A DNA stretch of 64,000 bases, from assembly GCA_951406725.2 (NCBI GenBank), contig OX597841.1, forward strand, positions 11,842,001-11,906,000. The letters are read 5' to 3'. The position numbers were made by a program. Origin of the DNA: Octopus vulgaris (Eukaryota). This document shows positions 24,313 to 26,782 of the stretch, piece by piece (positions within the stretch are counted from its first letter, which is position 1; every line of letters begins with the position of its first letter).

Positions 24313-24395
<83 letters not shown>

Positions 24396-24906
24396 ATATT
24401 TGGGAATGGTCATATTGCCAGTTTAGCCAATAAAAACACACGCACTATATATTTGGTGCTATTTTGCTTCAGTGTTATTTATTTTTTACATTAATCTTAA
24501 TCTTATTTCGGCCAGAGTTCTTTCGTCACACTCCTGTGACTGCATCAGTGGTCCTTTGTTTTCTTCTTTCTTATTTGTGTCTCGCCTTACTAACCGTCAG
24601 CCATTTTGTATTTCTATTGTATGTCTTCATTTGCGCATGCTTATATCTCTATGTGCGTTTATGTTTATTTAGTGTGTGTGTGGGGGGGGATGCCTGTAAT
24701 ATTTGTATCTTCTGTTTATATATGTTCATGTAATTTGTATTTTGTTTTTGTTGTTTTTGTTTATTCTTATTTTGTTCATGTGTTTTCTTCCACTTATTAT
24801 TATCATTACATATGCTTGTATGTATAACAACAATACTATTAATAACAATAATAAATCGAATCGAAAAAAAATATATATATATAAATAAAAAAAATTAATT
24901 AAAAAA

Positions 24907-24965
<59 letters not shown>

Positions 24966-26124
24966 TTTATCTGTGTATTTATTATGTTTTCAGGATCCTC
25001 TATCGTCATATGTTGTGGTGTGTGTTAGTGCTCCATTCTAGTTTTCTATTCAGGCTAGGTTTATTTTCTATTATGTGTGTAGCTTCTGTAATTTGTCGAA
25101 TTGTTGCATCTGATCTATGTGTGGATAATATTTTAATTTTTATAATATTTTAATTCCTGTTCGGCGTGTTGGTACAGAATCGATGAGCTTTTACCTTCCT
25201 TGAGTTGTCTCCAATGCTCATTTACCCGCTCTCCTATGCTTCTTGCTGTTTCCCCAACGTATGTCGTTGTCTTCGTCTTGTTACTGCATCGTCCCTCTAT
25301 ACATCTTATACTATAGACTACATTTCTGGCTTTACAGTTTGTTTGTGGGCTAAATCTACATACAGTACAGTACTTATCCGTACAGGGGGTTCTACTAAAA
25401 GGATAGGTTCTACCAATTATAGATTTGATAGGGTTGCCTGGCTTTTCTACAACCTTAATTCTTAGCTTAAGTTTGTCTAGGGTCCTTCTAAAGCGGTACG
25501 CCAGTTTACCTCCATGGGTGGTGTCAACGAACATGACACTCTGGTATTTATGGCTATTTTACCAAGAGTTGGCCTTCCTTATTTTCTTTTTTGTCCTTTC
25601 TATAGTGTTCCATGACTTGTTCCTATAGAGTGGGCAAATCCCATTCCTATCATTACATAATATATTATTAAATTTCTTAATGGCTCCTTTGTATACTCTG
25701 ATCCTTTCTTTGTGGCTGTAACCACTACTAGACACCGAACTCTGGCTAGAAATTGTGAATAATAAAACCCAAATCCTTCATTCATACTATGCCAAACCTA
25801 TGGCCTCAAAATACTTGATCCACCGGAACTCAGCCATTGCGGACAATGCCAAATTCAATATTTTGATGGCAGACCTCGTCAGAATAATGAGAAATGTGTT
25901 ACGCATGTGCGAGCCCACAGAGTTAAAGAGACACATACAATATTTCATTCACCGCATGCAGTTCTCAGATGCAACAATTAGACAAATTACAGAAGCTACA
26001 TACATAATAGAAAATAAACCTAGCCTGAATAGAAAACTAGAATGGAGCACTAACACACACCACAACATATGACGATAGAAGATCCCGAAAACAATAAATA
26101 CACAGATAAATAAACTAATAGAAA

Positions 26125-26209
<85 letters not shown>

Positions 26210-26782
26210 TTTTTTTTATTATTAATTTTTTAAAATTTATATATGTTTTTTTTCGATTCGATTTATTATTGTTATTACTAGTATTGTTGTTATACATACA
26301 AGCATATGTAATGATAATAATAAGTGGATGTAAACACATGAACAAAATAAGAATAAACAAAAACAACAAAAACAAAATACAAATTACATGAACTTATATA
26401 AACAGAAGATACAAATATTACAGGCATCCCCCCACACACACACACTAAATAAACATAGACGCACATAGAGATATAAGCATGCGCAAATGAAGACATACAA
26501 TAGAAATACAAAATGGCTGACGGTTAGTAAGGCGAGACACAAATAAGAAAGAAGAAAACAAAGGACCACTGATGCGGTCACAGGAGTGTGACGAAAGAAC
26601 TCTGGCCGAAATAAGATTAAGATTAATGTAAAAAATAAATAACACTGAAGCAAAATAACACCAAATATATAGTGCGTGTGTTTTTATTGGCTAAACTGGC
26701 AAAATGACCATTCCTAAATACAATAATATCTGTTTCAACACACGACTTCATATAAAAAATCTTGCACAACAAATATTTAAAC

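What the first reader, a model, noticed from the sequence alone, without database searches (positions are those of the whole stretch)
24391..26724. PLE insertion with a readable twin-priming-like junction and a 3' end at both termini
Seen: the - strand piece starts at GYSHKERIRV (25723) and runs to the pLTR. The adjoining + strand piece encodes the immediately preceding residues LLDTELW...MQFS, then jumps at a TCAG microhomology (~25965) into a second copy of the element's 3' end. The paralog at 44077-44454 (LQFSRNSQRERIRV) shows that QFS and S.ERIRV are normally contiguous. Known: this is the geometry of L1 twin priming, and inverted PLE ends are documented. Inference: both ends of one break in a (TA)n tract primed reverse transcription at the RNA 3' end, one cDNA switched template internally, and the two cDNAs were joined.
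Basis: partly seen in the sequence, partly recalled or inferred. Interest (0 to 1): 0.7.

Follow-up and report, generated by a model that had tools for sequence, protein, structure and literature searches.

The report
Inverted-end Penelope-like retroelement insertion
A decayed Penelope-like retrotransposon copy sits in a TA microsatellite with the element's tail end facing outward on both sides, and its inner joints fit one insertion event in which both cut DNA strands started copying the element's RNA; the kind of structure is known, but this copy is unusually easy to read.

Summary
Window 24388-26729 is a head-to-head Penelope-like element (PLE) insertion between two (TA)n tracts. Its arms, 24388-25113 and 25965-26729, are about 97% identical inverted repeats.

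The 851-nt centre has two pieces:
- Piece A, minus strand, starts at GYSHKERIRV (25723).
- Piece B, plus strand, covers 25722-25968 and ends ...MQFS.

Both belong to one family. They are 95-96% identical in protein to an Octopus vulgaris predicted protein, at residues 558-638 and 640-693. They are exactly contiguous in that protein, in 15 of 16 distant homologues, and in the window's own paralog.

B joins the second 3' end copy at a 4-nt TCAG overlap. A joins B at a 2-nt overlap. One end carries a 56-nt extra tail.

The best reading is one event. Both strands of a (TA)n break primed cDNA at the RNA's 3' initiation region. One cDNA jumped to an internal position, the other stopped exactly there, and the two were joined.

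Inverted PLE ends, one-sided tails, (TA)n targeting and in vitro extension of both strands are already published. So this is a clear example of a known architecture, not a new one. The mechanism remains inferred from a single locus.

The parts
24280..24391 (.). Left flanking (TA)n tract, 56.5 units; it directly abuts the left arm.
   Evidence: TRF; sequence.
24388..25723 (-). Piece A: element from internal position p (Gly of GYSHKERIRV) to its 3' end. On the plus strand this is cDNA-sense sequence attached to the left flank.
25006..25723 (-). Coding part of A. It holds the end of the RT region, a Cys linker (C-x4-C-x2-C ... C) and a GIY-YIG endonuclease with two Cys between the GIY and YIG motifs. 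There is an in-frame stop at 25559-25561, a frame change near 25133-25150, and the ORF stop at 25006-25008.
24388..24906 (-). Left copy of region X, about 500 nt distal to the internal (TA)n tract. It is probably the pLTR / 3' UTR part of the element.
   Evidence: whether X belongs to the element is inferred.
24511..24548 (-). Hammerhead-like motif, left copy: CUGAUG, two unpaired bases, a 6-bp helix II with a GGAG loop, then GAAA.
   Evidence: not called by Rfam.
24907..24961 (.). Internal (TA)n tract of the left arm, 27.5 units.
25722..25723 (.). Joint J1. The 5' end of A (GGT on the minus strand) and the 5' end of B (CCA on the plus strand) overlap by 2 nt (CC/GG).
   Evidence: All 8 of 8 PLE proteins begin their B alignment at 25722.
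25722..25968 (+). Piece B: the 244-247 nt of the element that lie immediately upstream of p, in the opposite orientation to A. It encodes PLLDTELW...HRMQFS.
25965..25968 (+). Joint J2: TCAG shared by the end of B and the start of the second 3' end copy. The reading frame is kept across it.
   Evidence: ORF 25722-26072.
25965..26729 (+). Piece C: second copy of the element's 3' end. It runs from position y inside the C-terminal part of the endonuclease (SDATIRQITEA...) to the 3' end, and is about 97% identical to the matching part of A.
   Evidence: Endonuclease C-terminus matches; consensus DA..RQ..EA.
26133..26209 (.). Internal (TA)n tract of the right arm, 38.5 units.
26569..26606 (+). Hammerhead-like motif, right copy.
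26730..26785 (+). 56-nt extension present at the right end only. It is unique in the window and is a candidate PLE 'tail'.
   Evidence: Literature on tails. Whether it is element-derived or target DNA is not settled.
26784..26837 (.). Right flanking (TA)n tract, 27 units.
43701..45130 (-). Collinear paralog, a different PLE family (66-71% nt identity). It was used as an internal reference for contiguity of the two breakpoints.
17799..17926 (+). 128-nt fragment of the same family's 3' UTR. It ends in AAC(TA)3 and has no region X after it.

Best explanation
This is one integration event of a canonical Penelope-like element (C-terminal endonuclease, Neptune/Nematis-type linker) into a (TA)n microsatellite. 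The steps below are inferred unless marked otherwise.

1. The element's GIY-YIG endonuclease opened both strands.
2. Each 3'-OH primed reverse transcription at the element RNA's 3' initiation region. One started 56 nt further downstream than the other, which gave a one-sided tail.
3. The cDNA on the left flank copied the RNA from its 3' end up to position p (piece A).
4. The cDNA on the right flank copied from the 3' end only to position y inside the endonuclease coding region (piece C).
5. That cDNA then switched, through the 4-nt TCAG match, onto position p of the RNA that the other cDNA was copying. It continued for about 245 nt (piece B).
6. The left cDNA ran into this hybrid and stopped at p. 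This explains why A and B are contiguous in the template but inverted in the genome.
7. The two cDNA 3' ends annealed through 2 nt (CC/GG) and were filled in.

Shown directly by the sequence: the arrangement, the same-family origin of A and B, the exact adjacency, the overlaps, and the absence of target DNA at the inner joints. Inferred: the order of events, the use of one or two RNAs, and the collision.

The copy is now dead. It has a stop, a frame change, and about 3% divergence between the arms.
For: - **Arms:** 701 of 722 positions identical; the repeat ends at 24388 and 26729 next to (TA)n tracts.
- **Family and contiguity:** B and A1 are one family and contiguous. P0151 residues 558-638 match at 77/81 and residues 640-693 at 52/54. 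15 of 16 homologues that match both pieces give a one-residue gap. The MQFS|GY junction motif is conserved in 13 of 13 displayed homologues. The paralog places the breakpoints 0-1 nt apart.
- **Start of B:** B begins at 25722 in 8 of 8 tblastn queries.
- **Inner joints:** there are no TA repeats or other filler at J1 or J2. The TCAG overlap is present in both source sequences.
- **Equal arm divergence:** divergence is the same in the coding/UTR part (146/151) and in region X (501/517) (blocks). This fits one origin for the whole arm.
- **Region X carries a PLE-type motif:** a hammerhead-like motif with PLE-type architecture lies on the element's sense strand in region X, and occurs nowhere else in 64 kb. 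With a stem of at least 6 bp, 9 of 300 shuffles give any hit. This architecture matches the description in Cervera 2014 (passages).
- **Literature:**
  - A PLE protein cleaves and extends both target strands in vitro and starts reverse transcription at two adjacent internal sites whose spacing gives the tail (Frangieh 2024, main text).
  - An inverted 5'-truncated copy at the 5' end, a one-sided 30-40 bp tail and (TA)n targeting are typical of PLEs (Craig 2021, passages and section 11).
  - Twin and dual priming are described for L1 (Meyer 2010, passages).
Against: - This is a single locus. No genome-wide count, no empty orthologous site and no read-level confirmation were possible.
- Region X could not be tied to the element by homology. 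It has no similarity to any fetched PLE protein (best E 2.1).
- The family ORF starts MYTHPFD (P0153), so the open frame running through the end of X and the tail is not the ORF start.
- Rfam calls no hammerhead. The motif has a C where the canonical core has A9. Its fold is not better than shuffles (z -1.1 and -1.3).
- A 128-nt fragment of the same family ends at AAC(TA)3 without X. The element's 3' end may therefore sometimes, or always, lie at the internal (TA)n tract.
- The tail is 56 nt, longer than the published 30-40 bp, and could be target DNA.
- The 2-nt overlap at J1 is not significant.
- No target-site duplication can be read in (TA)n.
- The stop of cDNA A at p could equally come from an RNA broken at p.
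Confidence: 0.55

Rival explanations
1. Same single event with priming on both strands, but the adjacency at p arises because the template RNA was broken at p. One cDNA ran off the 5' end of the 3' fragment. The other jumped onto the 3' end of the 5' fragment.
For: It explains the exact adjacency as well as a collision does. End-to-end template jumping is a known property of non-LTR reverse transcriptases (recalled: R2 studies by Bibillo and Eickbush; not seen here).
Against: The donor site y is internal to the endonuclease coding region, not an RNA end, unless a second break is assumed. The 4-nt TCAG overlap points to annealing-guided switching. Nothing at p marks a cleavage site, and the hammerhead-like motif is far away.
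Confidence: 0.15
2. Two separate insertions. First a classical twin-primed copy (A plus inverted B) entered the (TA)n tract. Later a 5'-truncated copy (C) integrated exactly at the border between B and the flank, and its 5' end was joined through the TCAG microhomology.
For: PLEs target (TA)n repeatedly. Microhomology-mediated 5' junctions are reported for a PLE (Arkhipova 2013, passages). The two arms differ by about 3%, which two source copies could also produce.
Against: Not one TA unit remains between B and C, although the endonuclease would have cut inside the tract. The RNA around p has no TA-rich stretch for a (TA)n primer to anneal to. The two arms are far closer to each other (97%) than to the only other family fragment in the window (73-94%).
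Confidence: 0.12
3. DNA-level rearrangement after a simple 5'-truncated insertion. Replication template switching or palindrome formation, followed by deletions, inverted B and duplicated the 3' end in inverted orientation.
For: (TA)n is self-complementary and prone to hairpins, so an inverted duplication boundary inside it would be invisible. Equal divergence of both parts of the arms also fits this model.
Against: It needs at least three switches. The duplication boundary must fall within about 4 nt of the element's end on the right side (26729). No flanking non-element DNA is included in the repeat. Every joint lies inside element sequence. The reverse-transcription model needs only activities already documented for PLEs and LINEs.
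Confidence: 0.08
4. Self-priming (snap-back) of a PLE template, as proposed for head-to-head PLE repeats, produced the inverted arrangement.
For: Arkhipova 2013 (passages) infers self-priming from palindromes at inverted junctions of rotifer PLEs.
Against: Self-priming predicts a palindromic junction, with the same sequence on both sides. Here the two sides of J1 are different, adjacent template segments (p onward versus p-245 to p).
Confidence: 0.04
5. Assembly artefact, such as a chimeric or fold-back read.
For: Craig 2021 (passage) notes that complex PLE insertions often cause assembly problems.
Against: The arms differ by substitutions and by indels, including (TA)n lengths of 27.5 versus 38.5 units and an 18-nt indel. 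The centre is asymmetric and is not a fold-back of either side. The outer flanks are unrelated unique DNA.
Confidence: 0.04

Closest known systems
Head-to-head inverted PLE insertions with pseudo-LTRs and a one-sided tail (Craig et al. 2021, PMC8557442; Arkhipova et al. 2013, PMC3846280)
   Same: The 5'-truncated copies lie head to head, so the element's 3' region forms inverted terminal repeats. An extension is present at one end only. Insertion is into (TA)n. A hammerhead-type motif lies in the repeat region.
   Different: Published rotifer cases show overlap or palindromes at the inverted junction. Here the junction joins two adjacent, non-overlapping template segments. One arm also has an internal jump from y to p. 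The tail is 56 nt, against the published 30-40 nt.
L1 twin priming (Ostertag and Kazazian 2001, recalled; described in Meyer et al. 2010, PMC2837659, passages)
   Same: A 5' segment is inverted relative to the 3' segment of the same template. The breakpoints are adjacent in the template, and there is a short overlap at the internal joint.
   Different: In L1 the template-proximal end of the inverted segment is attached to target DNA, which acts as the primer. Here it is attached to a second cDNA of the element's 3' end. There is no poly(A) and no readable target-site duplication.
L1 'dual priming' (Meyer et al. 2010, PMC2837659, passages)
   Same: Both nicked strands prime at template 3' ends, which gives 3' end sequences at both termini.
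   Different: Dual priming was proposed for L1 as a speculation with two mRNAs and only a poly(T) stretch as trace. Here about 730 nt of 3' end are present at both sides, and one cDNA switches into the other's template.
In vitro reaction of the Anolis Poseidon PLE protein (Frangieh et al. 2024, PMC11167929)
   Same: Both strands of an AT-rich target are cleaved and extended. Reverse transcription starts at two nearby internal sites, which explains the tail.
   Different: That work is an in vitro study of another clade. It did not recover joined two-cDNA products or inverted genomic structures.

Membership tests
Penelope-like elements, canonical C-terminal EN+ type | Reverse transcriptase region of PLE type, followed in the same ORF by the endonuclease | tested here: met
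   B, A1 and A2 align collinearly to long RT-plus-endonuclease proteins. Examples are P0151 (803 aa, residues 558-800) and P0155, P0158 and P0164. Pfam RVT_1 is only weak in P0151 and P0158 (E 0.003-0.004, below cut-off). That an RT plus GIY-YIG fusion defines PLEs comes from the literature.
Penelope-like elements, canonical C-terminal EN+ type | GIY-YIG endonuclease domain | tested here: met
   The window piece matches Pfam GIY-YIG at E 0.0021, 18.8 bits, below the 22.6 cut-off. 11 of 41 aligned relatives match, best E 5.8e-7. Y100, G102, E103, R111, E114 and H115 are conserved.
Penelope-like elements, canonical C-terminal EN+ type | CCHH motif with two Cys between GIY and YIG | tested here: met
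   C86 (invariant), C91, H115 and H131 (90% or more) in alignment A1. All are present in the window translation.
Neptune / Nematis clades | CX2-5CxxC Zn-finger-like linker upstream of GIY-YIG | tested here: met
   C59-x4-C64-x2-C67 ... C75 is conserved and present in the window. No phylogeny was made, so which of the two clades applies is not decided.
Hydra clade | CCHH absent; linker CxCX5C | tested here: not met
   CCHH and a CX4CxxC linker are present. Definition from Craig 2021, section 11.
Naiad / Chlamys | N-terminal endonuclease | tested here: not met
   The endonuclease follows the RT region.
Penelope-like elements, canonical C-terminal EN+ type | Hammerhead ribozyme motif in the pLTR / 3' region | tested here: inconclusive
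   A hammerhead-like motif is found in both arms only. There is no Rfam hit, a C at core position 9, and a fold z-score of only -1.1 to -1.3.
Penelope-like elements, canonical C-terminal EN+ type | Pseudo-LTR architecture (tandem or inverted repeats of the terminal region) with an optional one-sided tail | tested here: met
   There are inverted terminal repeats of about 730 nt, and a 56-nt extension at the right end only. Whether the 56 nt are element-derived was not testable.
Twin priming (as defined for L1) | Inverted 5' segment whose breakpoint is adjacent to that of the direct 3' segment | tested here: met
Twin priming (as defined for L1) | The inverted segment is primed by, and attached to, the second target strand; target-site duplication flanks the whole | tested here: not met
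   B is attached to a second 3' end copy through TCAG, not to target DNA. A duplication cannot be read in (TA)n.
Dual priming (as proposed for L1) | The template's 3' end is copied from both target strands | tested here: met
   3' end sequence faces outward at both (TA)n flanks. That the copying happened by target-primed synthesis is inferred.

The most novel reading that the evidence does not exclude
This locus may be a readable fossil of the normal PLE integration intermediate. In that reading the inverted pseudo-LTR architecture of PLEs, unexplained since their discovery, is made by symmetric target-primed reverse transcription from both strands of one break, perhaps by a dimeric ribonucleoprotein. 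The two cDNAs meet on a shared RNA and are joined by short overlaps. If so, inner breakpoints of head-to-head PLE pairs should be adjacent in template coordinates far more often than chance allows. That prediction can be counted in any PLE-rich genome.
Probability: 0.4. Interest if true: 0.6.

Novelty: new member of a known kind. Interest (0 to 1): 0.4.

Why it matters
How PLEs make their tandem and inverted terminal repeats is stated as an open question in the field (Craig 2021 passages). The only in vitro system so far shows cleavage and extension of both strands but no finished products (Frangieh 2024).

A genomic copy whose three joints can all be read to the base gives a concrete, countable signature of a two-strand priming model: adjacent inner breakpoints, no filler, and short overlaps. 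That signature differs from what the self-priming model predicts, which is a palindromic junction.

On its own this is one decayed copy and changes nothing about the host genome. Its value is as a template for a genome-wide test.

Tried and rejected
- **ORF start in X and tail.** An open frame (MTIPKYNNI...) runs through the end of X and the tail. Instead I fetched family proteins. Their N-terminus is MYTHPFD..., and blastx of X plus tail against all 270 fetched proteins gave nothing better than E 2.1. Idea dropped.\n- **Rfam hammerhead.** No hit at gathering score over the whole window. None among the 12 matches at E up to 10 in 24200-26900; 11 of those are microRNA-family models lying on or next to the (TA)n tracts and one is a pestivirus 3' UTR model.\n- **Pfam on B and A1.** No family. 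Pfam on P0151, P0155, P0158 and P0001 gave only sub-threshold RVT_1.\n- **PDB profile search with alignment A1.** Only a designed repeat protein at E 0.014, which is irrelevant.\n- **Search for the in-frame B-C fusion ORF (25722-26069) in the protein collection, to confirm J2 independently.** No candidate among proteins of 63-203 aa. Longer and shorter proteins were not searched.\n- **Resemblance between the tail and the 66-nt tandem repeat next to the paralog.** Only 12 nt are shared, E 0.14, so this is chance.\n- **tRNA-like look of 17700-17798.** ARAGORN finds nothing.\n- **Literature on twin priming in PLEs.** 'Penelope-like' + 'twin priming' gave 3 papers, none on the subject by title or abstract. 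'Penelope' / 'pLTR' / 'template switching' gave 31 papers with at least 2 terms; of the 15 listed, none joins the topics. 'Penelope-like' + 'head-to-head' + 'reverse transcription' gave 1 review. Subscription papers are outside the library.\n- **Not done.** B and A were never joined into one query; each piece was searched on its own. The bacterial/archaeal genome collection was not scanned because it cannot hold this element. No eukaryotic genome DNA was available.
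Full report
**What is there**

The region lies in microsatellite-rich DNA. Between a (TA)n tract at 24280-24391 and another at 26784-26837 lies a 2.4-kb block. Its outer 730 nt on each side are inverted copies of one another. The ungapped arms are 24388-24907 / 26210-26729 (96%) and 24864-25113 / 25965-26214. A gapped alignment gives 719 of 743 identical positions, or 701 of 722 once 21 spuriously extended positions are removed. The repeat stops at 24388 and 26729, and the outer flanks are unrelated.

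**The centre (25114-25964) is not repeated**

- Its left part is coding on the minus strand. It runs from GYSHKERIRV at 25723 through a Cys-rich linker and a GIY-YIG endonuclease. It has one in-frame stop (25559-25561) and a frame change near 25133-25150.
- Its right part is coding on the plus strand: PLLDTELW...HRMQF, then a Ser codon (25722-25967).

**Identity of the element**

- A phmmer search of 1.84 billion representatives with the 141-aa linker and endonuclease piece found 1264 proteins at E up to 0.001.
- The closest full-length relative is an 803-aa 'Hypothetical predicted protein [Octopus vulgaris]' (P0151), so the host is probably an octopod.
[quoted passage not shown] 11 of 41 aligned relatives reach Pfam GIY-YIG at E up to 0.01. 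The window piece itself reaches E 0.0021, below the curated cut-off.
- Two Cys lie between GIY and YIG, two His are conserved, and a CX4CxxC linker is present.
- By the definitions in Craig 2021 this is a canonical C-terminal EN+ Penelope-like element of the Neptune/Nematis type. It is not Hydra, because CCHH is present. It is not Naiad, because the endonuclease is C-terminal. No tree was made.
- That paper's supplementary table lists Naiad and Hydra families from octopuses, all targeting (TA)n. I did not see this family there, and I searched the file only for three words.

**The key test: contiguity**

I searched the pieces separately and never joined them.

- Against P0151, piece B matches residues 558-638 (77/81) and piece A1 matches residues 640-693 (52/54). 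Residue 639 is Ser, the TCA at 25965-25967.
- Of the best 150 distant homologues, 37 match B, 29 match A1 and 16 match both. In 15 of those 16 the projected gap between the last residue of B and the first residue of A1 is exactly one residue. In the other one the B alignment ends 16 residues early and projects a gap of 5.
- The junction motif (M/L)Q(F/Y/H)S|G(Y/H) is visible in all 13 homologues printed.
- The window's own collinear paralog (minus strand, 43701-45130, 66-71% nt identity) puts 25719 opposite 44387 and 25966 opposite 44393. The breakpoints are therefore adjacent or overlap by one base.
- B begins at 25722 in 8 of 8 tblastn queries, at a conserved Pro.

A and B are neighbouring stretches of one template, placed head to head.

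**The joints**

- *J1 (25722-25723).* The first codon of A (GGT, minus strand) and the first codon of B (CCA, plus strand) share CC/GG. This 2-nt overlap is not significant by itself.
- *J2 (25965-25968).* B ends TTC TCA G. The arm, as seen in the left copy, reads AGA TCA GAT, so TCAG is common to both sources. By my arithmetic a 4-nt or longer overlap is expected in about 1.4% of random joins.
- The arm start (position y) lies in the conserved DA..RQ..EA...LN part of the endonuclease.
- No TA units or other filler occur at either joint.

**The arms**

Each arm holds the end of the endonuclease ORF, a short UTR, an internal (TA)n tract (27.5 and 38.5 units) and about 500 nt that I call region X.

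- X carries, on the element's sense strand, CUGAUG + 2 nt + a 6-bp helix with a GGAG loop + GAAA + a minimal third helix. A 5-bp first helix appears in the predicted fold.
- This matches the published description of PLE mini-hammerheads: a long helix II, an unpaired base 5' of it, a short helix I and a minimal helix III (Cervera 2014, passages).
- Against that, the motif has C instead of A at core position 9, is not called by Rfam, and does not fold better than shuffles (z -1.1 and -1.3).
- It occurs only in the two arms. With a stem of at least 6 bp, 9 of 300 shuffled windows show any hit.
- Divergence between the arms is the same in the coding/UTR part (146/151) and in X (501/517).

I take X to be the pseudo-LTR / 3' UTR of the element, but this is inferred. 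X has no protein similarity to fetched PLE proteins. A 128-nt fragment of the same family at 17799-17926 ends at AAC(TA)3 without X.

The right arm is followed by 56 unique bases (26730-26785) before the (TA)n tract. The left arm abuts (TA)n directly. That is the published pattern of a PLE tail at one end only. Frangieh 2024 traces the tail to two alternative internal start sites of reverse transcription. At 56 nt it is longer than the 30-40 nt reported, and I cannot exclude that it is target DNA.

**Mechanism**

On the plus strand, 24388-25723 is antisense (cDNA-sense) sequence attached to the left flank. On the minus strand, 26729-25724 is cDNA-sense sequence attached to the right flank. The simplest account has two cDNAs, each primed from one strand of a break in (TA)n at the RNA's 3' initiation region.

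- The right-hand cDNA copied down to y, then switched through TCAG to position p and went on for about 245 nt.
- The left-hand cDNA copied down to p and stopped.
- The two 3' ends were joined at CC/GG.

The exact adjacency at p is what L1 twin priming predicts when one cDNA meets the hybrid made by the other. The presence of a 3' end at both termini is what 'dual priming' predicts (Meyer 2010). Cleavage and extension of both strands by a PLE protein has been shown in vitro. An RNA broken at p would explain the adjacency equally well.

**Rivals**

- *Two separate insertions.* These would have to leave no TA unit between the pieces and hit the same template position by chance, roughly 1 in 1000 by my arithmetic.
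- *A DNA-level inverted duplication.* This needs at least three switches, with a boundary within about 4 nt of the element's end.
- *Self-priming* (Arkhipova 2013). This predicts a palindromic junction, which J1 is not.
- *A fold-back assembly artefact.* This does not give an asymmetric centre or arms that differ by indels.

None of these is excluded outright.

**Comparison with what is known**

Already in print: inverted 5'-truncated copies at the 5' end of PLEs, one-sided tails, (TA)n targeting linked to the linker Zn-finger, and hammerheads in pLTRs.

I did not find, in three searches of the open library, a PLE junction read as twin or dual priming with adjacent breakpoints. Subscription papers such as Pyatkov 2004, Arkhipova 2006 and Evgen'ev and Arkhipova 2005 were not seen and may discuss this.

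My verdict is a clear new example of a known architecture, with a mechanistic reading that is plausible, testable genome-wide, and unproven.

**Left unchecked**

- No genome-wide count, no empty site and no reads were available, because no eukaryotic genome DNA could be searched.
- The bioRxiv preprint's supplements were closed.
- Only one supplementary file of Craig 2021 was searched, and only by three words.

Noticed in passing
window 42773-45130 (minus strand): Second PLE of a different family. It is collinear from about residue 383 of P0151 to the endonuclease, 5'-truncated near 45130, and ends beside a (TA)n tract at about 42705-42775. A 106-nt direct repeat (42773-42874 and 43395-43500, 88.7%) brackets about 520 nt of unrelated sequence at its 3' side. 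This may be a spacer plus terminal repeat, or a second tiny truncated copy.
   Followed up: partly
window 45122-45387: About four tandem copies of a 64-66-nt unit (about 95% identical) directly abut the truncated 5' end of the paralog.
   Followed up: no
window 17799-17926 (plus strand): A 128-nt fragment of the studied family's 3' UTR ends in AAC(TA)3. It shares with the right arm an 18-nt stretch that the left arm lacks, so the left arm has a deletion there. The sequence just upstream (about 17700-17798) looked tRNA/SINE-like by eye, but ARAGORN finds no tRNA.
   Followed up: partly
window 33025-33774 (plus strand): Weak reverse-transcriptase-like matches to PLE proteins: P0164 at 30% over 77 aa, and P0151 at 27% over 154 aa with E 5e-4. 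This is probably another decayed retroelement.
   Followed up: no
window 25722-26072 (plus strand): The B/C joint keeps the reading frame. It makes a 116-codon open frame that fuses an RT segment to the last 35 residues of the endonuclease. No matching protein of 63-203 aa was found. The frame match is probably chance (1 in 3).
   Followed up: yes
window 26695-26961 (plus strand); 24388-24413 (minus strand): An ATG-initiated open frame (MTIPKYNNI...) runs through the last 26 nt of region X, the 56-nt tail and on into the (TA)n tract. It does not match the family's annotated N-terminus.
   Followed up: yes
window 23117-23645, 23820-24030, 45490-45560, 45790-46040: Very long (TA)n, (CA)n and mixed microsatellites lie throughout the neighbourhood. 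Both PLE copies and the small fragment all end at TA repeats.
   Followed up: no
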